IMG/VR virus record: IMGVR_UViG_2909309443_000001
Direction: 5' to 3' (one strand)
Source: a virus
Taxonomy: Duplodnaviria > Heunggongvirae > Uroviricota > Caudoviricetes
Length of the DNA: 13,370 nucleotides
This document shows, piece after piece, positions 759-9,872 of this stretch; within the stretch, counting starts at the first letter, position 1; every line of letters begins with the position of its first letter. Made by a program: the position numbers and the translations under genes. The notes under the pieces are model-generated. The model was not told the DNA's origin, did not search any database, and worked only from the letters and a program-made list of their open reading frames with translations.

Positions 759-1922
759 TCACTCATCATCTTCTGTTTCATACTCCACATCAGAAAGCCT
801 GACCTCAAGCTCCAAGGACGTCGTGAAGCCGCTATTATTCAGAAAATGTGTCACCTTAGTGATTGTCCAGTCCTGCTCGTCTATGACGCGCTTAAAACCT
901 GACACTTTGACCGGCGTTTCCGTGTAAATATCTGCCCGGCCGGTAGCCAGGCTGATGGAGAACTCTGCTACACCCCGTTGCAGTTTATCCCACTTCGCCT
1001 GAGCGGCACGCATGGCCTGTGCTTTCGTGGCATATACCGTGGTCAGGGCAAAAACGTTGTCAGCCTCACCGGCCATGTATTCACCTTCGCGCGCTTCCGG
1101 TACTTTTGGCGCTTTCTTCTGCCTGACCGGTTTCGCTTTCGGGTGCTCCAGTGCGCGCAGGTGTTTCTCTTTCTTTTTGCGTTTCAGTTTTACCTTCTGC
1201 TTTTGCGGCTTCGGGTCTTTGGTGTGAAGCCACTTTGCCGTTACGCCGGTATAGGCTCCACGGTCAGCAATCGCAAAATGGTGGCGGTCGCCGTCGCTGC
1301 GGGTTATGGTGACCTGCGGGATTTTTTTACCGCTGGCCGTCACCCCCTGCCCCGCTTTGAGAAACAACAGTTTTCCCATTTTTACCGAGACCTCACCACC
1401 GTTGCGTTCTGCAAGACGGGTCAGGAATTTCGCATCAGACTCCTGCGACTGGTCGATGTGCGGGATTTTAATTCCTGCCAGTGACGGCGCGACACTGGCT
1501 TCCAGCCTGTTACGGGAGGCTATCGCCTCAACAATCGCACCGAGCGTGGTGTCATGCCAGGAGCCTTCACGGCGGGAATTGAGCGTCCCGCGAAAATCTG
1601 CACTCCGGGCGCGGATGGTAACCACATCCGGTGCGCCCCGGTGTTCAACCTCATCAACGGTGAATTTCCCTTTGCATACCAGGGCAAAACCTTTCCAGCC
1701 GATATACACCGTCAGGACAGCGCCACGAACCGGCAGCCCGACCTGCCCGTCGGCATCGTTCAGTTCAATATCAAGCTGGTCAGCCTCAAAGCCCCGGTTA
1801 TCCGTCAGGGTCATGCTCATCAGACGGTCGCTGATATTGCCGGTAATATCCCTGCTGTCGAGCATCAGCATGTAATCCGGTGTCAGCGTACTGCCTGCAT
1901 CAAATGTCAGCGCATCCAGCAT
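759..1922 (-). CDS. D: Tail protein D (P2 gpD family), 387 aa
   Basis: 387-aa ORF, the same length as P2 gpD. It sits between U and ogr as in P2. Its ATG overlaps the U stop (TAATG). Confidence 0.88.
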   Translation of the reverse strand: MLDALTFDAGSTLTPDYMLMLDSRDITGNISDRLMSMTLTDNRGFEADQLDIELNDADGQVGLPVRGAVLTVYIGWKGFALVCKGKFTVDEVEHRGAPDVVTIRARSADFRGTLNSRREGSWHDTTLGAIVEAIASRNRLEASVAPSLAGIKIPHIDQSQESDAKFLTRLAERNGGEVSVKMGKLLFLKAGQGVTASGKKIPQVTITRSDGDRHHFAIADRGAYTGVTAKWLHTKDPKPQKQKVKLKRKKKEKHLRALEHPKAKPVRQKKAPKVPEAREGEYMAGEADNVFALTTVYATKAQAMRAAQAKWDKLQRGVAEFSISLATGRADIYTETPVKVSGFKRVIDEQDWTITKVTHFLNNSGFTTSLELEVRLSDVEYETEDDE

Positions 1923-2401
1923 TATCCCGCCCCCGTCATACCCGTGAATTTAGTCGCCATACTGCCAGCCTTACCGATGAGCGATTCCGCCTGTTTACCT
2001 ATATCGCCATAAAGCGCGGCCAGTGATTCATCAACGCGGGTAAGTGACAGCGTAAAATCAATTTTCCGGGGTGTGCCGTCTGCAAAGAAAATACTCCCTG
2101 TTTCACTCACCCTGCTGATGACATACATGCCGTAAATCATGCCGGTGCCATCCAGCAACGGCCACGCCCGGCCTTCCTCTGCCATCAGCCTGAGCGTGGT
2201 CATCGTCAGCTTGCCGCCGGTCAGTTCGGGATAAAGCACACCGGCAAGCGTGATGTTTTCCTCACCCACACCGAGAAACTGAAAGGCATCCCGTTTACCG
2301 ATACGGGAATTTGACGGCCAGCGATAATCTGATTCACGCTGCATGGTCTGGTGTGGCAGCGTCTGGCGCATAAAAACAAACATACCTAACGCGAGCATCA
2401 T
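1922..2401 (-). CDS. U: Tail protein U (P2 gpU family), 159 aa
   Basis: 159-aa ORF directly downstream of T and upstream of D, in the P2 order T-U-D. Confidence 0.88.
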   Translation of the reverse strand: MMLALGMFVFMRQTLPHQTMQRESDYRWPSNSRIGKRDAFQFLGVGEENITLAGVLYPELTGGKLTMTTLRLMAEEGRAWPLLDGTGMIYGMYVISRVSETGSIFFADGTPRKIDFTLSLTRVDESLAALYGDIGKQAESLIGKAGSMATKFTGMTGAG

Positions 2402-2415
2402 TGTTCGTCACCTCC

Positions 2416-4863
2416 TTAACCGTCATGCATCATGCTGGCACGGGCGCGCGCACGTTTATCCCGCTCGTATTTTTCGAGTGCATCCTGTAACTGGCGGTCA
2501 AGCTGTGTCCCCGGCGCAGTACCACCCGTAAGGCTGATGTGATATTCGTTTTTACTCTGGTCTACATAAGAGCGGCCAGCCGGTGCCGTGACCGGCTGAT
2601 AAGCCTGATAGCCTGCATAAGAGCTGGTCGCCGGAATATACCCACCGGTGCCATACGTGGCGGCATGAGTCCTTGCGGCGGTCTGGTCAAGTGTGTCTGA
2701 CTCTTTGTTGATAACACCGAGTTTTTCCAGTACCCAGTCAATACCGCTGCGCAGTTTGTTGAACGCATTAAGCGGCAGCATCAGCGCGTCAGCCAGTGCC
2801 TGCCCGAACATGACGCCCGTGTCACGGCAACGGTTCAGGGTGTCCCGGGTGGCTTTGACCGGGGCAATCAGGTTTTTAAACCACTGCCACGCGGCCTGTA
2901 ACTTTTCGCCCAGCCAGTCAAACACCGGCTTAAGTGGCGTGAACAGTTCCCCCACCGGCGCAAATGCCGCTTTCAGCCCTTCCACCACACCGCCAAAGAA
3001 TGCGCTGACAGGCTCCCAATATTTACGGATAAGCAACGCCCCGGCGACAATGGCGGCCACCACGGCCACAACCGGCCAGCTAATCGCCCCGATGGCCGTC
3101 ATAACAGCACTGCCAACCGTCGTGAAGATTGCCCCCATTGCGCCTGCTGCCGCGATGATGGCATTGATGCCAGTGATAACCGGCCAGGCTACGAGGCCAA
3201 TGGCACCGATGACAGCAGTCAGCGCCAGTGCACCACCGACAATGAGGCCGATGGTTGACGCCAGTGATTTGTTTTTCTGTATCCAGCCGTCGAGTTTTAA
3301 CACATACTTTGTGGCCGTCTGCGTGAGCTTACGCAGTGCGCCTTCCTGCTGGTCAAACAGGTCAGTCCCCACCGCCTCATAAGCGGACTGAAACTCCTTA
3401 AAGTCACCGCCGAGGTTGTCCTGCATGATATTTACCAGCTCGGCGGTCTTCCCGTCTGAGGCTTTAAACGCAGCGGTCAGTTTGTCCAGCTTTCCAGTTG
3501 AGGCGGCAGTCATCAGCACGGCGGCGGCTGAGCTGGCCTCCTCCCCGAAAATGGTTTTCATGTATTCAGCCTGCTGGGCAGTACCGAGCCGGTTTTTCTC
3601 AAAACTGGCCTGCATTTCTTTCAGAATGGTAAATACTGGTCGGGTGTTTCCCTTACTGTCTGAGGTTTTCACGCCAAGCTCTTTCAGTGCATCCCATGCT
3701 TTTCCCGTCGGTGCCTGCAGGCGACTTAACACGGCACGGCTTCCCGTCCCCGCCATTGAGCCTGTGATTTTTGCATCATGCAGCGCCCCGACCATTGCGG
3801 CGGTTTCTTCAATGCTGACACCGGCATTTTTTGCCACAGGTGCGGCATAGGTCAGCGCATCGCTCATGCCGTCAAAATCGGCGGCGGTTTTGTTCATCGT
3901 CATGGAGAGAACATCCCCGATATGAGCGACCTTATCGTTTGAAAGCTGAAAGGCGGATTTCATCCCCATCAGCAGGGCGGCGTTTTCTTCCATCGTGCGG
4001 CGGTTCGCCAGCGCCATATTCAGCGTGACCGGCGTTGCCGCCTGAATGGCATCAACATCCCCACCCGCTTTCGCGATGATTATCTGTGCACCGGCCGCAT
4101 CATCCGCCGAGGCGGCGGTATTGTCGCCGAGCTGGCGCGCCTGTTTGCGTAGCGCGGCCATTTCGGCGGAATCTTTTGCCACACCGAGCACGGCCTGCAA
4201 TTCTGAGTTTTTCTGCGCAAACTCATAACCGGGCATCAGCAGCTTAACTCCGGCCATCGTTCCCGCCGCCGCAATCCCCACACCGGCAGCGCCCACCGAG
4301 GCCATATTTCCGGCCAGTTCCTTGCCTGCCTGATAACGCTGTTTTACTGCGTTAAGTTTTGCCTGTTGTGCACTGACACGCGCCAGTGCGTCACGCTGAC
4401 GGTTAAGCTGTGCGGTGGTTTCACTGATACGGTTTTTCAGTCCCTGCTCATTATGTGCAAGATTGCGGGTATTAATTCCCACAGCGGCCAGTTCCCGCTG
4501 CTGGCGTTTAATGGAATCTGTCAGGCGGTTATATTTCGCCTGTAAGTCCTCCGCCGCACGCTTTGCGGATTCCAGCACTTTCGCCTGAGCACGGGTCGGA
4601 CGTTCAGTGTTTTTAAACTGTGTGGCAAGGGCTTCGGCCTCCTGCCGAGCCTTTTCAAGTGCATGACCAGTCACGGCAAGCTGTGCGCTGGTCTTGCGAA
4701 ATCCCTCAATACGGGATGCGTGACCGTTCAGCTCGCGCAGTGATTTTTGTGTTTCCCGGATATCCCCCGACAGCGACTTACTCGCTGTGCGGATGGATTT
4801 AAACGGGCGGGATGCCTGGTCAACAGCCCTGAGCAATACCTGTAATTTTACATTGTTACTCAT
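2416..4863 (-). CDS. T: Tail tape measure protein T (P2 gpT family), 815 aa
   Basis: 815-aa ORF, the same length as P2 gpT. Ala/Gly-rich with coiled-coil N-terminal part and hydrophobic central segments typical of tape measure proteins. The E' remnant stop overlaps its start. Confidence 0.9.
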   Translation of the reverse strand: MSNNVKLQVLLRAVDQASRPFKSIRTASKSLSGDIRETQKSLRELNGHASRIEGFRKTSAQLAVTGHALEKARQEAEALATQFKNTERPTRAQAKVLESAKRAAEDLQAKYNRLTDSIKRQQRELAAVGINTRNLAHNEQGLKNRISETTAQLNRQRDALARVSAQQAKLNAVKQRYQAGKELAGNMASVGAAGVGIAAAGTMAGVKLLMPGYEFAQKNSELQAVLGVAKDSAEMAALRKQARQLGDNTAASADDAAGAQIIIAKAGGDVDAIQAATPVTLNMALANRRTMEENAALLMGMKSAFQLSNDKVAHIGDVLSMTMNKTAADFDGMSDALTYAAPVAKNAGVSIEETAAMVGALHDAKITGSMAGTGSRAVLSRLQAPTGKAWDALKELGVKTSDSKGNTRPVFTILKEMQASFEKNRLGTAQQAEYMKTIFGEEASSAAAVLMTAASTGKLDKLTAAFKASDGKTAELVNIMQDNLGGDFKEFQSAYEAVGTDLFDQQEGALRKLTQTATKYVLKLDGWIQKNKSLASTIGLIVGGALALTAVIGAIGLVAWPVITGINAIIAAAGAMGAIFTTVGSAVMTAIGAISWPVVAVVAAIVAGALLIRKYWEPVSAFFGGVVEGLKAAFAPVGELFTPLKPVFDWLGEKLQAAWQWFKNLIAPVKATRDTLNRCRDTGVMFGQALADALMLPLNAFNKLRSGIDWVLEKLGVINKESDTLDQTAARTHAATYGTGGYIPATSSYAGYQAYQPVTAPAGRSYVDQSKNEYHISLTGGTAPGTQLDRQLQDALEKYERDKRARARASMMHDG

Positions 4864-5135
4864 TCGTGTTTCCGCTTCGCCGGAGCGCCTTTTCGCGCCA
4901 TGTGATGAGTTCGGTCAGGCTCATGGGATACAGTTCTGATGGCGGCCAGTGAAATATCACTGCCACATCCGCCATCAGGTCATCGACCGAGAGATTTTTC
5001 GGGAACGTTACTGCACCGAGTTCGGCGACAAAAAACCGACCACCTTACCGGCCAGCGCCACAAGGTCAGGCAGTTCCAGCGCGGCGACTTCCTGCTCGGT
5101 CAGCATCGGTGCCGTCATGCGCGGCAGCACCTTAA
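4856..5135 (-). pseudogene. E: 5'-truncated remnant of tail chaperone genes E and E+E', with the -1 frameshift module intact
   Basis: My translation of the minus strand gives ...VLPRMTAPMLTEQEVAALELPDLVALAGKVVGFLSPNSVQ* ending at TAA 5010-5008. An in-frame TAG at 5211-5209 lies upstream and there is no ATG for a full-length E. GGT TTT TTG at 5037-5029 carries the T TTT TTG slippery heptamer. The -1 frame is open from 5035 to the TAA at 4858-4856, overlapping the T start. Confidence 0.6.
5029..5035 (-). other. Programmed -1 ribosomal frameshift slippery heptamer T TTT TTG of the E/E' tail chaperone pair
   Basis: Plus strand CAAAAAA at 5029-5035. On the minus strand it is in frame as TTT TTG within the E remnant, and the -1 frame continues open for about 57 codons. 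Confidence 0.6.
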
Positions 5136-5136
5136 G

Positions 5137-5298
5137 CCGGAGAACATCGGGTCGCTGGGCGATATTGAGAAAGTGGCAAAGGTCTTTGTCCGCAATGAGC
5201 TTATCCCGCTACAGGACAGGATTCGGGAAATAAACGGCTGGCTCGGTCAGGAGGTCATCCGCTTTAAAAACTACTCACTGGACACTGACAACGGCTGA
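5137..5298 (+). pseudogene. Q: 3' fragment of portal gene Q (C-terminal ~54 codons)
   Basis: Plus-frame translation ...PENIGSLGDIEKVAKVFVRNELIPLQDRIREINGWLGQEVIRFKNYSLDTDNG* ends at TGA 5296-5298, followed by a strong terminator and then cos. This matches P2, where Q is read toward cos. The upstream part of ORF 4939..5298 in the track is antisense to E/E', so that ORF is a chimera. Confidence 0.5.
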
Positions 5299-5303
5299 AC
5301 ATC

Positions 5304-5467: not shown

Positions 5468-5486
5468 GTGCTTTCCCCGCCTCGCC
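5468..5486. other. cos site: 19-nt cohesive-end sequence of the P2/186/P4 family
   Basis: Plus strand GTGCTTTCCCCGCCTCGCC is the reverse complement of GGCGAGGCGGGGAAAGCAC, which I recall as the shared 19-nt cohesive end of P2, 186 and P4. Its position between the A-distal cargo gene and the Q 3' end matches P2 genome ends. Confidence 0.7.
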
Positions 5487-5637: not shown

Positions 5638-7470
5638 TCAAACAGAGCCCTGTTCAAAAACAGTATCAAAATATGGTAGGAGAGGATAAGCACACAGAAA
5701 GAAAATCAGGATGCATGCATATGTCGTTGTTTCATCGTAACAAGCATTAGTATATAAATTACCATGTGCTAATTTATGTCTTAAGGTTGCCCCACTCTTT
5801 CTGTTAAAAAGAACATCGATAGTCAAAACAAGATTTTTAGAAAAGATACTTTCCAAATCATCTCTGCATTTATCTAGAAGCTGAGAAATACTTGTTGACT
5901 CCTCTAATCCCTTATCCAAATATCTAGTAGCATCCTTTCCACTAAGCTCATAATAATAACGAACCATACCTTCCATTTGTGGTATTAAAAGATAAGCTGC
6001 ACTGATGTAATCTCCCTGCCATAATTTGTAAAAGCCCAAATTAAAAATCTCCCTAAACTCCGGCTTGACAATTGGACTAGTTGTAACCAATTTAACGAAT
6101 GTTGACAACGTCAAGCCATGTTCTTGAGAAAGTACATAGCGAGCAGGTTCAAAGACACCGTTTACAAAAATCTTATGAGTAATCTCGAAATTTCTTAGAT
6201 ATTGATCAATAACAACATCATCACTCATATCCTTTTTATTATCCAACGGCGGGATTGTATATATCTTACGCCCACTCTCATCATTAATTTCTGTTCCAAC
6301 AAAACTAGAGAATAAACTTTTTTCTGATAATCTTAAAACTTGTTCCCTCATGCTTTCAATATTTTCAATCGGTGTTTCACTCATTAAAACTTTGAATATA
6401 TCGGGCAAAGAACGCCCCGTCAGTTTTTTTTCACTTTCAGCAACCAAGTCACTAATATCAATAGAATGGCTTAAAGTGACATATTCACTCCTTACTTCTT
6501 CTCTCAAATTAGCAAGTTGTTCCTTTAAATCTTCTATCTGTTGGCTATCACCACCGTACTGTCTTAATTCAGAGATAGCTGTTCTTAACCAAGAGATCTT
6601 ACCCATATTATCAGGTCGTTCTGTTGCAACTTTAATAGTAATATTTGCAGATGCCAGTTTACATCTCTTGGCACGTTCATACTCACCATTTTTTTCATAA
6701 ATAACTGCACTTGTCATATAAAGTGATTTTACAGCATCATAATATTTTTTATCTTTATGCTGCTCAGCCATCTTCTCAGCATTTTCCGCATACTGCAGAT
6801 TATACCCATCAAAATCACGCACCATAAACCAAGTCAAATTATTGAAACCTTCAAAGATTAATCTTTCATTTTGAATACTATAAAGAGAATGAATGGCATT
6901 TTTAATCGCCATGTTTCCTTCTGATTTTCTAGGGTAGACCATTTTATTAATGTGCAAAGCCCTAGCAATATAATCACGAGCAAAAATAAAGCAATTTAAA
7001 TCACTTTCATCCATGCTTTCGTTTTTTATTATTGGCTTTTCAATTGCTATATTTAGCATTTCAGCATAGGAATCAATTGCTTTAATTGCCACGTCTTTAT
7101 TTTTCCGATTATTACACCAAACAACATCATATATTCTTGATAACAAAAATGGATTGGTTATTTTTTGAGAAACATATAAAAGACAGTCATTCACCTGCTC
7201 ATCAAAATCTTCAGGCAATATTGATCTTTTATTACCCCAAATCATTTGGGGTTCAAATGATGGAGTGTTGTTAACAACTTGCAAATTGAAACTATATAGC
7301 ATACCAAAAAGAGATGCTAATTTTTTCTCTTTGGGGTTTTCTGATGACTCAGCAATCCCATCCAGATATTTTTTTATTTTATGTGCATGAAATGTAACTG
7401 GTATATGCATAAAAACACTATAATCTAGTGTTTCAAGCTCTTCCCTTGTAAGAACAAAGATATCATTCAT
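5638..7470 (-). CDS. AT-rich cargo protein (~610 aa) at the tin/old position; candidate anti-phage protein with a C-terminal HEPN-like Rx4H motif
   Basis: Long minus ORF whose base composition is far more AT-rich than the flanking phage genes. ATG at 7470-7468 is preceded by AAAGGTGAAAACG (GGTG 6 nt upstream). The track's longer ORF to 7575 starts at a TTG only 15 nt after the A stop. C-terminus carries ...ATLRHKLAHGN... (R-x4-H). No Walker A motif. No recognisable family from sequence alone. Confidence 0.75.
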   Translation of the reverse strand: MNDIFVLTREELETLDYSVFMHIPVTFHAHKIKKYLDGIAESSENPKEKKLASLFGMLYSFNLQVVNNTPSFEPQMIWGNKRSILPEDFDEQVNDCLLYVSQKITNPFLLSRIYDVVWCNNRKNKDVAIKAIDSYAEMLNIAIEKPIIKNESMDESDLNCFIFARDYIARALHINKMVYPRKSEGNMAIKNAIHSLYSIQNERLIFEGFNNLTWFMVRDFDGYNLQYAENAEKMAEQHKDKKYYDAVKSLYMTSAVIYEKNGEYERAKRCKLASANITIKVATERPDNMGKISWLRTAISELRQYGGDSQQIEDLKEQLANLREEVRSEYVTLSHSIDISDLVAESEKKLTGRSLPDIFKVLMSETPIENIESMREQVLRLSEKSLFSSFVGTEINDESGRKIYTIPPLDNKKDMSDDVVIDQYLRNFEITHKIFVNGVFEPARYVLSQEHGLTLSTFVKLVTTSPIVKPEFREIFNLGFYKLWQGDYISAAYLLIPQMEGMVRYYYELSGKDATRYLDKGLEESTSISQLLDKCRDDLESIFSKNLVLTIDVLFNRKSGATLRHKLAHGNLYTNACYDETTTYACILIFFLCAYPLLPYFDTVFEQGSV

Positions 7471-7589: not shown

Positions 7590-9872
7590 TTATTGCTCTG
7601 AATAACAATAAAACCAACTCCACTCATCAGCGACCGGATACGTAAATTTTTTCCCGTTGTAATTTACGATCGCGCCACGCGCCAGCGCCTCAAGCTCCCA
7701 TCGCTGCGGCCTGATACCGTTCTGAGCAAGGTCAACGCGGATACGGGTAATTTGCATTCTTTCCGACCGGGTCAGTCTGGCCGATGGCGCTATTTCATGC
7801 GGTTTTAACGGTCTTCCGTTTCTTTGCTGACGGTTTGGTCTTCTCAGGCCGTGTTTTAATGCGCCCCTGAGCGCCCTCACGACCTCCGGGTCATTCCATT
7901 CGATAACACCGTCATCAACCAGATTAAGCACTGCTGCGGCGTGCTCAGAAGGCGTGGGAGCCGGTAACGAAGTATCACCACCAGTGAGCTTTCCACAGTT
8001 ATTGACAGGACTCCGAGGCGCGGCGATGCCGCTTTTTAAAGTCAAAGGCTCAACGACCGGAACTTTCGGCACAATGCGCCAGTCCGTCGTTCTGGTGATA
8101 TGAATATGACGCGCGCCGAGATGCGGCGCGTAAATGCCGACCACTCTCTCGACTTCTTCCTCGTACTCGTTAACGTCATCCGACGGGCTACGGGCAACCC
8201 TGACAGTCTGACAATCGCGCGGGACATTTGCCCCACCCTGCGCGCTGATATACAACGCAAAATCACCACTGTCTGCAGCAGCGCGAGCAGCCTCGACGCG
8301 TTCGTCAAACTCATCAGCAATGCTGACGCCGCGAGGCAATTTGCGTAGTTCACGGTAAGCCCCCATTGTCGGCAGACCAACCGTTTTAAATTGCGGAATG
8401 CGCCACGTTGACGCCCATGCGGTAACAGCCGCAGCTGTGTCTTTCAGCGGCCTACCGGTATCATTATCGAGCTGACCATCCAGTGCATAGCCGTCGATGT
8501 TTTTTGAGATGTATTTCGCGATATATCCCGCAGCACCGCCCCGGTTAAGGTGTTTTGCCTGAAAACGGTTTCGCGCAGCTCCTCTTTCGTCGCCATCCTC
8601 TTTGAGCGCGTAGCGACGCATGATTTCAATAATCTGGTTACGCTGGCGTGGATTACAAAAAAGCATCATATGCCAGTGCGGCGTTCCGTCGTGGTGTGGC
8701 TCGACGACACGCAAACCGTAGACCTGTAAATCATTATCCTTGAATGCCGTGCGCATCAGGCTCCAGATATGGCAGAGATAACGCTGCGCATCCTTTGGAT
8801 TAAATGCCTCATCGTTCCAGCCGTGATTTAGCTGGACGGTTTTACTTTCGCCTTTTCCGACCTGACGTGTCGGGTGATACTTTGACGGCGCGGTAAGCGT
8901 GATAAACATCCCCACATCACCCTCTGCGGCGGCGTAACGCTCAATACCGGCAATGGTGTTCATCAGCTCCATCCGGCGAATTTCAGGATTAGAAATACTG
9001 CCCATCACCTTACTGATAAGGTCGATGCGTTCGCCGGTTTCCCTGTTTTCAAGGTCACACGATTTAAGAAATTCCAGATTTGCCTGGCGGCGTGCACGCA
9101 CATCACGAATGGCATGTTTACTGGCATAAGGTGAACGGTCTTTATTGACCTCCCCGACAGCAATCAGTAACGCCTCATGCCAGCGCATACGCTGGCCTTT
9201 AAGCTGACTAATCCACCACTCATCGTTAAACAGGCGGGCAATGGCAGAATATGCCTGCCTCGTGGTCATCTGTCCTTTACGGTATTTTTTCCAGTAGAGC
9301 GGGGAAATATTGAAAGCACGTGCAGCGCCAGCAACATGACCATAGAGGTGAGCCTGCGCCTCATCCGTAAACAGCGATTCTTTTTCGCCATGCGCATCCA
9401 CCCAGGCATCGCAGAGTTCCTCATACATAATGAAAAGCTGCGATGAGATACGGGCGGCAAACTTTTTCAGCTCCTTATCATTCATCCCCGGCAGACGCGC
9501 ATAATGGTCACGCTCTGCCAGAAACAGCAACGACGCGTCGGTGTTCATTTCATGGCGCTGATTCACGCGCTCAATGCGCGGCCATAAACGACGCTGAAAA
9601 GTGGATGTGAGGAAATAAAACCCGTGCACCGGGCTTTTATTGCGCCGGATGTAGTCATAGCGTGAAGTAAACAGCGAGCGCAAAAAGTAAGGCAGGCGGT
9701 TAATCGTGGATAAAACACCTTGCACCTGACGCATCTCGTCACGTGTAAGGGGTCTTTCGCGCCCGACGGCCTCGCGTGGCGCGTTCCATGCATAAGCACC
9801 GGTAAACGCCTTACCGGTGCCTGCAGCAAATGCTGACGGAGGGACAAAACGCCCGGAGGCTTTAACGGCCAT
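7590..9872 (-). CDS. A: Replication initiation endonuclease A (P2 gpA, rolling-circle initiator), ~760 aa
   Basis: First ATG at 9872-9870 gives MAVKASGRFVPPSAFAAGTGKAFTGAYAWNAPREAVGRERPLTRDEMRQVQGVL..., a length and N-terminus consistent with P2 A. The track's 774-aa version starts at a TTG. It follows orf83/B as in P2. Confidence 0.88.
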   Translation of the reverse strand: MAVKASGRFVPPSAFAAGTGKAFTGAYAWNAPREAVGRERPLTRDEMRQVQGVLSTINRLPYFLRSLFTSRYDYIRRNKSPVHGFYFLTSTFQRRLWPRIERVNQRHEMNTDASLLFLAERDHYARLPGMNDKELKKFAARISSQLFIMYEELCDAWVDAHGEKESLFTDEAQAHLYGHVAGAARAFNISPLYWKKYRKGQMTTRQAYSAIARLFNDEWWISQLKGQRMRWHEALLIAVGEVNKDRSPYASKHAIRDVRARRQANLEFLKSCDLENRETGERIDLISKVMGSISNPEIRRMELMNTIAGIERYAAAEGDVGMFITLTAPSKYHPTRQVGKGESKTVQLNHGWNDEAFNPKDAQRYLCHIWSLMRTAFKDNDLQVYGLRVVEPHHDGTPHWHMMLFCNPRQRNQIIEIMRRYALKEDGDERGAARNRFQAKHLNRGGAAGYIAKYISKNIDGYALDGQLDNDTGRPLKDTAAAVTAWASTWRIPQFKTVGLPTMGAYRELRKLPRGVSIADEFDERVEAARAAADSGDFALYISAQGGANVPRDCQTVRVARSPSDDVNEYEEEVERVVGIYAPHLGARHIHITRTTDWRIVPKVPVVEPLTLKSGIAAPRSPVNNCGKLTGGDTSLPAPTPSEHAAAVLNLVDDGVIEWNDPEVVRALRGALKHGLRRPNRQQRNGRPLKPHEIAPSARLTRSERMQITRIRVDLAQNGIRPQRWELEALARGAIVNYNGKKFTYPVADEWSWFYCYSEQ

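What the first reader, a model, noticed from the sequence alone, without database searches (positions are those of the whole stretch)
6424..6431. Homopolymeric A8 tract inside the cargo coding sequence
The coding strand reads GAA AAA AAA CTG (E-K-K-L), an 8-nt mononucleotide run. Such tracts are slipped-strand mutation hotspots and could switch the gene on or off by frameshift, which may be relevant if the protein is toxic.
Basis: seen in the sequence. Interest (0 to 1): 0.2.

Follow-up and report, generated by a model that had tools for sequence, protein, structure and literature searches.

The report
Slippage-prone A8 run in prophage defence gene
An eight-A run in the middle of a prophage-carried candidate anti-phage gene is real and is where the gene most often breaks by one-base slips in nature, but it looks like an ordinary by-product of AT-rich codons, not a built-in on/off switch.

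Summary
The tract exists as described: T8 at + strand 6424-6431, which is A8 on the coding strand (GAA AAA AAA CTG; E347-K348-K349-L350). The gene is a 610-aa ORF (7470->5638, minus strand) with low GC. It sits in the variable cargo slot of a P2-like prophage, between replication gene A and cos. The protein is DUF7380 + TPR-like repeats + a C-terminal HEPN (DUF4209) domain, and it matches the PADLOC candidate PDC-S39.

The run is not more than chance. Shuffles of the gene give a run of 8 or more in 31-79% of trials. Orthologues at 54-67% identity have no run at this site but carry A8/T8 runs elsewhere. The E-K-K columns are among the most variable in the family.

The tract is nevertheless the gene's top indel site. 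Of 55 complete E. coli genomes with the gene, 54 have A8 and one has A9. In public assemblies, A7 or A9 alleles recur on at least six haplotypes, about 1% of contigs. That is about 8 times the rate at an A7 control run. Several come from clean short-read contigs. Both shifts delete the HEPN domain.

Verdict: a genuine but ordinary slippage hotspot causing sporadic loss of function. A selected phase-variation switch is not supported.

The parts
6424..6431 (-). A8 homopolymer (T8 on the + strand) spanning the last A of codon E347 (GAA), all of K348 and K349 (AAA AAA), just before L350 (CTG)
   Evidence: Read directly. The run is A7 or A9 in variant alleles.
5638..7470 (-). Cargo gene: a 610-aa protein with an N-terminal DUF7380 domain, TPR-like helical repeats and a C-terminal DUF4209/HEPN domain. 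It matches the PADLOC candidate defence protein PDC-S39.
   Evidence: Pfam DUF7380 scores 3.7e-39. DUF4209 scores 7.4e-4, which is below threshold here, but 46 of 68 relatives match it, best 3.2e-15. PADLOC PDC-S39 scores 9e-85. The AF2 model has pLDDT 92. Structure searches give TPR-like hits for the middle region and HEPN hits for the C-terminal domain.
5764..5781 (-). Codons of R564-H-K-L-A-H569, the Rx4H motif of the HEPN domain. It lies downstream of the tract and is lost in both frameshift alleles.
   Evidence: R564, H569 and G570 are invariant in a 68-sequence family alignment. The motif definition comes from PMC3710099.
6689..6695 (-). A7 run (gene nt 776-782), used as an internal control for indel frequency
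   Evidence: The run is listed. Its frameshift products were found on 3 contigs, against about 24 for the A8 run on the same N-terminal allele.
7369..7375 (-). Second A7 run (gene nt 96-102, I-K-K-Y). It is too close to the start for its frameshift products to be looked up.
7590..9872 (-). P2 replication gene A (replication endonuclease). It is the upstream boundary of the cargo slot.
   Evidence: Pfam Phage_GPA scores 1.6e-123.
5468..5486 (-). P2 cos sequence GGCGAGGCGGGGAAAGCAC. It is the downstream boundary of the cargo slot.
   Evidence: Exact match, with 0 of 200 shuffles matching. Its identity as the P2 cohesive end is from my own knowledge.
5135..5298 (+). 3' fragment of the portal gene Q. 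Homology to intact P2-like prophages stops at about 5134, where the sequence is fused to the gpE/E'-T-U-D-ogr tail block. The prophage is therefore a deletion derivative.
   Evidence: blastn of the window against intact loci L008 and L002. The megablast hits change from portal to gpE/tape-measure at query position 566.

Best explanation
The A8 run is an incidental consequence of encoding Glu-Lys-Lys with the preferred AT-rich codons (GAA AAA AAA). The gene is horizontally acquired, about 33% GC, and sits in the cargo slot of a P2-like prophage. As the longest mononucleotide run in the gene, it is the site where replication slippage most often adds or removes one A.

Loss of one A (A7) stops translation at residue 349. 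Gain of one A (A9) stops it at residue 364. Either way the C-terminal 250-odd residues are lost, including the HEPN Rx4H catalytic motif. The result is almost certainly a null allele of a predicted RNase-type abortive-infection protein.

Such alleles arise again and again but stay rare (about 1%) and young. This is ordinary mutational decay, possibly tolerated or mildly favoured when the gene is costly. It is not a dedicated phase-variation mechanism.

Shown here: the tract and its frame; the recurrence and position of the A7/A9 alleles; the lack of conservation; the domain content. Inferred: that slippage is the cause, that the truncations are null, and that the protein is an RNase defence effector.
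For: Composition and conservation:
- Shuffles of the gene give a run of 8 or more in 31%, 43% and 79% of trials. Lys is AAA in 32 of 44 codons and Glu is GAA in 36 of 50.
- Orthologues in Klebsiella, Kosakonia and a metagenomic contig occupy the same gpA-to-portal slot. At the homologous codons they read GAG GAA CAA, GAG AAA AAT and ACA AAT GAA. They carry their own A8/T8 runs at other positions.
- In a 68-member alignment, the columns of E347, K348 and K349 have entropies of 3.67, 2.69 and 3.57 bits, against a mean of 2.44.

Allele frequencies:
- Among 5,426 complete E. coli genomes, 55 carry the gene at 99% identity or more. Of these, 54 have the same length and one (PE15) has A9 and a split gene. 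That is the only indel in the set.
- Exact look-ups of predicted frameshift products found A7 alleles on Ecol867-type, S88-type, O157-type and a fourth protein allele. A9 alleles were found on PE15 and on a Salmonella allele.
- Full-length alleles are on 716, 353, 194 and at least 1000 contigs. A7/A9 alleles are on about 24, 1 and 4.
- Control runs on the same allele: A7 at nt 776 gave 3 contigs, and A6 runs gave 0-2 each. The odds ratio for the A8 run against the A7 control is 8.

Quality of the variant calls:
- Short-read contigs L008, L014, L025 and L028 carry the A7 deletion as their only indel. L008, L014 and L025 have 0 SNPs against an A8 reference. L009, L012, L013 and L016 carry no other homopolymer indel within the genes.
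- Salmonella A9 locus L021 differs by 1 SNP in 5.6 kb from Salmonella A7 locus L009.

Literature:
- Indel rate rises exponentially with run length in E. coli (PMC8510543).
- Selection against A/T runs becomes evident at about 9 nt (PMC1088944).
- Defence pseudogenes are rare (about 2%) in P2-like prophages (PMC13586616).

Against: - Recurrence of A7 and A9 on at least six backgrounds, and A7, A8 and A9 all on one Salmonella phage background, is also what a weak contingency locus would show.
- Contig counts are inflated by clonal sampling and by the same runs appearing in more than one database. The 1% figure and the 8-fold ratio are therefore rough.
- No switching rate, reversion or read-level heterogeneity could be measured here.
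- Anti-phage activity, RNase activity and toxicity of this protein are untested. PDC-S39 is only a candidate.
- In one haplotype (hap III) the A7 form is seen more often than the intact form, on 6 or so samples against 2 contigs. Local fixation therefore does occur.
Confidence: 0.8

Rival explanations
1. The A8 run is a selected contingency (phase-variation) locus. Slipped-strand mispairing reversibly toggles a costly or toxic HEPN defence gene, so that lysogen populations always contain both defended and undefended cells.
For: - Length variants A7, A8 and A9 occur on nearly identical phage backgrounds, and A7/A9 alleles occur on at least six haplotypes.
- Frameshifts concentrate at this run, 8-fold over the A7 control.
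- The gene product is a predicted RNase effector, which could plausibly carry a fitness cost.
- Homopolymer switching of single genes is documented elsewhere, for example the A7 run of inlA (PMC2831843).
Against: - The run is expected by chance given composition and codon usage.
- It is not conserved in orthologues, which have runs at unrelated positions.
- It lies in unconstrained columns.
- It is 57% into the gene, whereas contingency SSRs are enriched near N-termini, and E. coli as a species avoids SSRs (PMC3315296).
- The OFF state is only about 1% of assemblies, and 1 of 55 complete genomes.
- The A6 < A7 < A8 gradient fits the neutral length-dependence of slippage.
- Eight bases is below the length at which selection on A/T runs becomes visible.
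Confidence: 0.07
2. The tract is biologically stable, and all observed A7/A9 alleles are sequencing or assembly errors at a homopolymer.
For: - The chromosome-sized, evidently long-read contigs with A7 carry other homopolymer deletions within a few kb. L007 has six more. L010 and L011 also shorten the T8 run of the portal gene. L026 and L027 have G/C/A-run deletions.
- E. coli chromosomes with A7 are GenBank-only and absent from the 55 RefSeq hits.
- The sequencing technology of PE15 is unknown.
Against: - Contigs of 9-156 kb, typical of short-read assemblies, carry the A7 or A9 change as their only indel, in some cases with zero SNPs against an A8 reference (L008, L014, L025, L028, L021).
- The same A9 contig occurs in 3 samples, and the A9 allele in 3 further independent runs.
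- The Salmonella A7 allele occurs in several independent runs.
- Consensus errors at an 8-base run are uncommon in short-read assemblies (my own knowledge).
Confidence: 0.1
3. The run is a programmed recoding site. RNA polymerase slippage or ribosome sliding on A8 deliberately yields a second, truncated N-terminal isoform (DUF7380 + repeats without HEPN) alongside the full-length protein.
For: - A/T runs can support transcriptional slippage, in some organisms even at 8 As (PMC1088944).
- The truncation point falls between the repeat region and the HEPN module, at the end of helix 340-350.
Against: - Both shifted frames stop almost at once, after 1 and 15 new codons, so there is no conserved extension.
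- The run is absent from orthologues.
- Efficient slippage in most bacteria needs about 9 or more bases.
- There is no stimulatory element or conserved context.
Confidence: 0.03

Closest known systems
Homopolymer (SSR) frameshift hotspots and contingency loci, e.g. the A7 run of Listeria inlA (PMC2831843) and the SSR-controlled surface and restriction-modification genes of Neisseria and Haemophilus
   Same: A mononucleotide run inside a coding sequence whose +1/-1 length changes truncate the protein. Natural alleles with different run lengths exist on near-identical backgrounds.
   Different: The run is short (8). It is mid-gene, expected from composition, not conserved among orthologues, and variant in only about 1% of assemblies. 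No evidence of reversibility or of selection for the tract was found.
P2 tin/old variable region (P2 defence hotspot; Rousset et al. 2022, PMC9122126; PMC13586616)
   Same: It occupies the same slot, between replication gene A and cos/portal. It has low GC, is a single cargo gene flagged as a defence candidate, and is swapped between phages. A 32.5%-identical relative lies in the deposited 2.2-kb record of phage P2-EC46 (AM157366.1), which I take, from my own knowledge, to be that phage's TO region.
   Different: The cargo here is neither tin, old, PARIS nor another validated system. It is PDC-S39, which is untested. This copy sits in a prophage that has lost its head, lysis and most tail genes.
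HEPN-domain RNases of defence and toxin systems (Csm6/Csx1, HEPN-MNT toxins, AbiA C-terminal HEPN, RnlA/LsoA), specifically the C6orf70/DUF4209 HEPN family of Anantharaman et al. 2013
   Different: There is no solved close relative: profile and sequence searches of the PDB were empty. The N-terminal DUF7380 is of unknown role. There is no partner antitoxin or CARF sensor, and no biochemical data.

Membership tests
SSR-mediated phase-variable (contingency) gene | A repeat tract positioned so that unit gain or loss shifts the reading frame | tested here: met
   The A8 run is in frame. A7 stops translation at residue 349 and A9 at residue 364.
SSR-mediated phase-variable (contingency) gene | Tract-length polymorphism among closely related strains | tested here: met
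   A7, A8 and A9 occur on near-identical backgrounds, for example L021 against L009 (1 SNP in 5.6 kb) and L008, L014 and L025 (0 SNPs against A8 references). The frequency is low: 1 of 55 complete genomes and about 1% of contigs.
SSR-mediated phase-variable (contingency) gene | A tract longer or more frequent than base composition and codon usage predict | tested here: not met
   A run of 8 or more arises in 31-79% of shuffles.
SSR-mediated phase-variable (contingency) gene | The tract is conserved at the same position in diverged orthologues | tested here: not met
   Orthologues at 54-67% identity have no run at these codons and carry runs elsewhere. The protein columns are highly variable.
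SSR-mediated phase-variable (contingency) gene | 5'-proximal (or promoter) location of the tract | tested here: not met
   The tract begins at nt 1040 of 1833, 57% into the gene. N-terminal enrichment as a signature comes from PMC3315296 and PMC2831843.
SSR-mediated phase-variable (contingency) gene | High-frequency, reversible ON/OFF switching within clonal populations | not testable with these tools
   This needs read pileups or fluctuation assays. Only population-level allele counts were available.
HEPN superfamily (DUF4209 / C6orf70 family) | Sequence match to the family model | tested here: inconclusive
   The window protein scores 20.0 bits (E 7.4e-4), against the Pfam cut-off of 22.3. 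Of 68 aligned relatives, 46 match DUF4209, best 3.2e-15.
HEPN superfamily (DUF4209 / C6orf70 family) | A conserved Rx4-6H motif | tested here: met
   R564-HKLA-H569, with R564, H569 and G570 invariant in 68 sequences. The motif definition comes from PMC3710099.
HEPN superfamily (DUF4209 / C6orf70 family) | HEPN helical-bundle fold | tested here: met
HEPN superfamily (DUF4209 / C6orf70 family) | RNase activity | not testable with these tools
   This is a biochemical assay.
PADLOC candidate system PDC-S39 | Match to the PDC-S39 profile HMMs | tested here: met
   PDLC05011 scores 9e-85 and PDLC05012 scores 8e-84, both nearly full length.
PADLOC candidate system PDC-S39 | Demonstrated anti-phage activity | not tested
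   In the papers found it is listed only as a 'phage defense candidate'. No experimental paper was found.
P2 variable-region (tin/old slot) cargo | Location between replication gene A and cos/portal gene Q of a P2-like phage | tested here: met
   This holds in the window, in E. coli and Salmonella loci, in orthologues in Klebsiella and Kosakonia, and in phage vB_EcoM-569R9.

The most novel reading that the evidence does not exclude
The A8 run works as a low-rate contingency switch for a costly HEPN abortive-infection gene carried by P2-like prophages. Slippage to A7 or A9 sheds the defence, and slippage back restores it. This would explain why all three lengths are found on the same Salmonella phage background and why OFF alleles recur on many haplotypes.
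Probability: 0.06. Interest if true: 0.45.

Novelty: new member of a known kind. Interest (0 to 1): 0.17.

Why it matters
The practical value is modest.
- The run marks where this candidate defence gene (PDC-S39) is most often found broken. Defence-system catalogues and pangenome studies should therefore expect split calls of 349/364 aa plus 248-265 aa.
- Those calls should be checked for whether they are real A7/A9 alleles or long-read homopolymer errors.
- The result agrees with the recent finding that defence genes in P2-like prophages are rarely pseudogenised.
- Anyone cloning the gene can remove the hotspot with a silent GAA AAG AAA change.

The run would matter more only if the switching rate turned out to be high enough to act as bet-hedging for an abortive-infection toxin.

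Tried and rejected
- Chance test by three kinds of shuffle. The run is not enriched, so 'unusual tract' was rejected.
- Conservation in orthologues was tested and rejected.
- Exact look-ups of predicted A9 products on three common alleles (Ecol867, O157 and S88 types) found none. A9 is rarer than A7.
- Long-read chromosomes carrying A7 (L007, L010, L011, L026, L027) were set aside as evidence, because they have other homopolymer deletions nearby.
- Sequence and profile searches of the PDB, and NCBIfam, gave nothing useful.
- The afdb50 fold library was unavailable.
- The promoter and terminator scan of the gene region gave only consensus-level matches, not distinguishable from shuffles for promoters. 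It was not used.
- The Lee et al. 2012 mutation-accumulation paper could not be opened. The exponential length-dependence is cited through PMC8510543 instead.
- Programmed recoding was considered and rejected, because both shifted frames terminate within 1-15 codons and the site is not conserved.
Full report
**1. The observation.**
The + strand of the window reads T8 at 6424-6431, flanked by G and C. The coding strand is the minus strand. There the run is A8, in the frame GAA AAA AAA CTG, encoding E347-K348-K349-L350. The ORF starts at the ATG at 7470 and stops at 5638-5640, giving 610 aa. The run is the only homopolymer of 8 or more bases in the window. The window holds five runs of 7, and two of them lie in this same gene.

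**2. What the gene is.**
- The gene has GC 0.31-0.36, against 0.5-0.59 in the flanks.
- Upstream lies P2 replication gene A (Pfam Phage_GPA, 1.6e-123). Beyond that lie cox, C and an integrase.
- Downstream is an exact copy of the sequence I recognise as the P2 cohesive end, at 5468-5486.
- The gene therefore occupies the variable cargo slot of P2-like phages, where tin and old sit in P2. That slot has been described as a defence hotspot (PMC9122126, PMC13586616).
- The protein matches Pfam DUF7380 (3.7e-39) and, weakly, DUF4209 (7.4e-4). It matches the PADLOC candidate PDC-S39 at 9e-85.
- PDC-S39 appears in the papers I found only as a 'phage defense candidate'.
- A full-database search shows a large family: 2,733 50%-identity clusters, mostly proteins of 600-630 aa.
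- In a 68-sequence alignment the invariant residues are R82, D88, R170, E500, R504, G560, R564, H569 and G570. This includes an R-x4-H motif (RHKLAH) near the C-terminus.
- DUF4209 was classed as a predicted catalytically active HEPN family, often fused to TPR repeats, by Anantharaman et al. (PMC3710099). Of the 68 relatives, 46 match DUF4209, best 3.2e-15.
- An AlphaFold2 model of the whole protein is confident (pLDDT 92.1, pTM 0.80). Its structure-search hits are TPR-like helical repeats.
- The architecture is therefore DUF7380, then TPR-like repeats, then HEPN. The most likely role is a single-protein abortive-infection RNase. That role is inferred, not shown.

**3. Is the run more than chance?** No.
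- The gene is 34% A. It encodes Lys as AAA in 32 of 44 codons and Glu as GAA in 36 of 50.
- A run of 8 or more appears in 31% of mononucleotide shuffles, 43% of codon-order shuffles and 79% of synonymous shuffles that keep the protein.
- Orthologues at 54-67% identity in Klebsiella, Kosakonia and a metagenomic contig lie in the same gpA-to-portal slot.
- At the homologous codons they read GAG GAA CAA, GAG AAA AAT and ACA AAT GAA. They carry their own A8 or T8 runs at unrelated positions.
- The three protein columns are among the least constrained in the family, at 3.67, 2.69 and 3.57 bits against a mean of 2.44.
- In the model the residues sit at the end of helix 340-350, between the repeat region and the HEPN module.

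**4. Do alleles differ in tract length?** Yes, at low frequency.
- Of 5,426 complete E. coli genomes, 55 carry the gene at 99% identity or more. Fifty-four match over exactly 1,836 bases.
- One, strain PE15, is one base longer and is annotated as two CDSs. The extra base is an A in this run (A9). It is the only indel among the alleles compared.
- I then built the predicted products of A7 and A9 alleles on the common haplotypes and looked them up by exact sequence in the 15-billion-protein collection.
- The A7 product (349 aa, ending ...AESEKN) exists on the Ecol867-type, S88-type and O157-type alleles and on a fourth allele.
- The A9 product (364 aa) exists for PE15 and for a Salmonella allele. 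The matching C-terminal ORFs of 256 and 265 aa are also on record.

**5. Real variants or sequencing errors?** Both.
- The chromosome-sized contigs carrying A7 have other homopolymer deletions close by. L007 has six more. L010 and L011 also shorten the T8 run in the portal gene. L026 and L027 have further run deletions. These were set aside.
- Contigs of 9-156 kb, typical of short-read assemblies, look clean. L008, L014, L025 and L028 carry the change as their only indel, and the first three have zero SNPs against an A8 reference.
- L009, L012 and L016 (Salmonella; host flank 86.7% identical to E. coli) and L013 have no other homopolymer indel within the genes.
- The Salmonella A9 allele is on one contig shared by three samples, plus three further runs (L021-L024). 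It differs by one SNP in 5.6 kb from the Salmonella A7 locus.
- A7, A8 and A9 thus all occur on one phage background. Counting only clean contigs, the frameshift has arisen on at least six backgrounds.

**6. How often, and compared with what?**

| Allele or control | Contigs |
|---|---|
| Full-length, Ecol867 type | 716 |
| Full-length, O157 type | 353 |
| Full-length, S88 type | 194 |
| A7/A9 on the N-terminal allele shared by Ecol867 type and hap II | about 24 |
| A7 on O157 type | 1 |
| A7 on S88 type | 4 (at least two from error-prone assemblies) |
| Control A7 run at gene nt 776, same N-terminal allele | 3 |
| Control A6 runs | 0-2 each |

- The A8 run is therefore the top indel site, about 8 times the A7 control (odds ratio 8). 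The variant state is still only about 1% of assemblies.
- The counts are not independent samples, because of clonal sampling and duplicate deposition, so these figures are rough.
- The graded A6 < A7 < A8 series is what the exponential dependence of indel rate on run length predicts (PMC8510543).
- Eight bases is just under the length (about nine) at which selection against A/T runs becomes visible in bacterial genomes (PMC1088944).
- The low frequency also agrees with the report that defence pseudogenes are rare, about 2%, in P2-like prophages (PMC13586616).

**7. Consequence of the slip.**
A7 stops translation after residue 349 and A9 after residue 364. Both remove E500/R504 and the R564-x4-H569 motif, which is the whole HEPN domain. 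I infer a null allele. The variant alleles are young, with 0-1 SNPs from intact relatives. That fits short-lived loss-of-function mutations.

**8. Mechanism and rivals.**
- Best supported (confidence about 0.8): the run is a by-product of AT-rich codon usage and is the gene's most slippage-prone site. It produces sporadic, recurrent, mostly -1 loss-of-function alleles.
- A selected contingency switch (0.07) cannot be excluded without rate measurements. It fails four of the tests that could be run: enrichment over chance, conservation, 5' position and a high OFF frequency.
- 'All artefact' (0.1) is contradicted by the clean short-read contigs and by the same variant in several independent runs.
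- Programmed recoding (0.03) is unlikely. The shifted frames end within 1-15 codons and the site is not conserved.

**9. Novelty and interest.**
A homopolymer indel hotspot inside an AT-rich horizontally acquired gene is a well-known kind of thing. This instance is new only in that it is documented for PDC-S39 in P2-like prophages. Its practical value is as an annotation and cloning caveat. Interest is low (0.17). The most novel reading still open is bet-hedging of an abortive-infection toxin through a weak A8 switch. I give it about 6% probability, and it would be moderately interesting if true.

**10. Context noticed along the way.**
- The window's prophage is a deletion derivative. Homology to intact P2-like prophages ends at about 5134, inside the portal gene. 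It resumes inside gpE, followed by E', T, U, D and ogr.
- The cargo gene nevertheless remains intact here.
- The gpE/E' region keeps the T6G motif (5030-5035 on the minus strand). I recognise this as the P2 programmed -1 frameshift site. It is a conserved slippery run, in useful contrast to the unconserved A8.

Noticed in passing
window 4863-5300 (junction near 5134/5135): The P2-like prophage is a deletion derivative. A 3' fragment of portal gene Q (+ strand, to about 5135) is fused to a 5'-truncated gpE, followed by E', tape measure T, U, D and ogr. All head and lysis genes and most tail genes are missing, yet the cargo gene is intact. One complete genome (W13-16, H56) covers 86% of the junction query in two joined pieces, whereas the next best hits cover only the gpE/tape-measure side; I did not inspect its junction.
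   Followed up: partly
window 5030-5035 (minus strand GGTTTTTTG): A T6G run sits in the remnant of gpE. From my own knowledge this is the conserved programmed -1 frameshift site that produces gpE+E' in P2-like phages. It is a functional slippery run in the same window, in contrast to the unconserved A8.
   Followed up: no
RefSeq records H5, H17, H18, H20, H29, H38, H45, H48; L001 positions 1-2283: At least eight 'complete' E. coli chromosome records place this cargo gene at positions 2397-4235. The records were therefore rotated to start at the prophage gpA replication-endonuclease gene rather than at dnaA. This is probably an artefact of the assembler's start-gene choice.
   Followed up: no
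L003 about 6165 (portal gene; not present in the window because of the deletion): A T8 run in the P2 portal gene is shortened to T7 or T6 in the long-read chromosomes L007, L010 and L011. It is a handy marker for homopolymer errors in assemblies that carry P2-like prophages.
   Followed up: partly
L002 10253-11254; L020 9070-10675: The content of the cargo slot varies. CFSAN061761 has an extra 333-aa hypothetical ORF between this gene and the portal gene. The Kosakonia locus has three further unannotated ORFs.
   Followed up: no
L015 (SRR4179879 contig), 1302-3584 and about 6348 in L003 coordinates: The hap III A7 lineage also has gpA split into 200 + 559 aa and a non-homopolymer 1-base deletion in the portal/terminase region. 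The prophage in this lineage seems to be decaying more generally. The A7 form is seen more often than the intact form (6 or so samples against 2 contigs).
   Followed up: partly
AM157366.1 (phage P2-EC46, a 2,192-bp record): A 32.5%-identical, full-length relative of the cargo protein lies in this deposited fragment of P2-EC46, which I take to be its TO region. This protein family has therefore been sitting in sequenced P2 variable regions for about two decades without functional study.
   Followed up: no
window 5638-7470 protein, residues 1-185 and invariant R82, D88, R170: The N-terminal DUF7380 domain has its own invariant charged residues and a small beta-hairpin region (62-73). It has no recognisable relative in the PDB. 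It could be the sensor or a second catalytic site, but nothing here says which.
   Followed up: no
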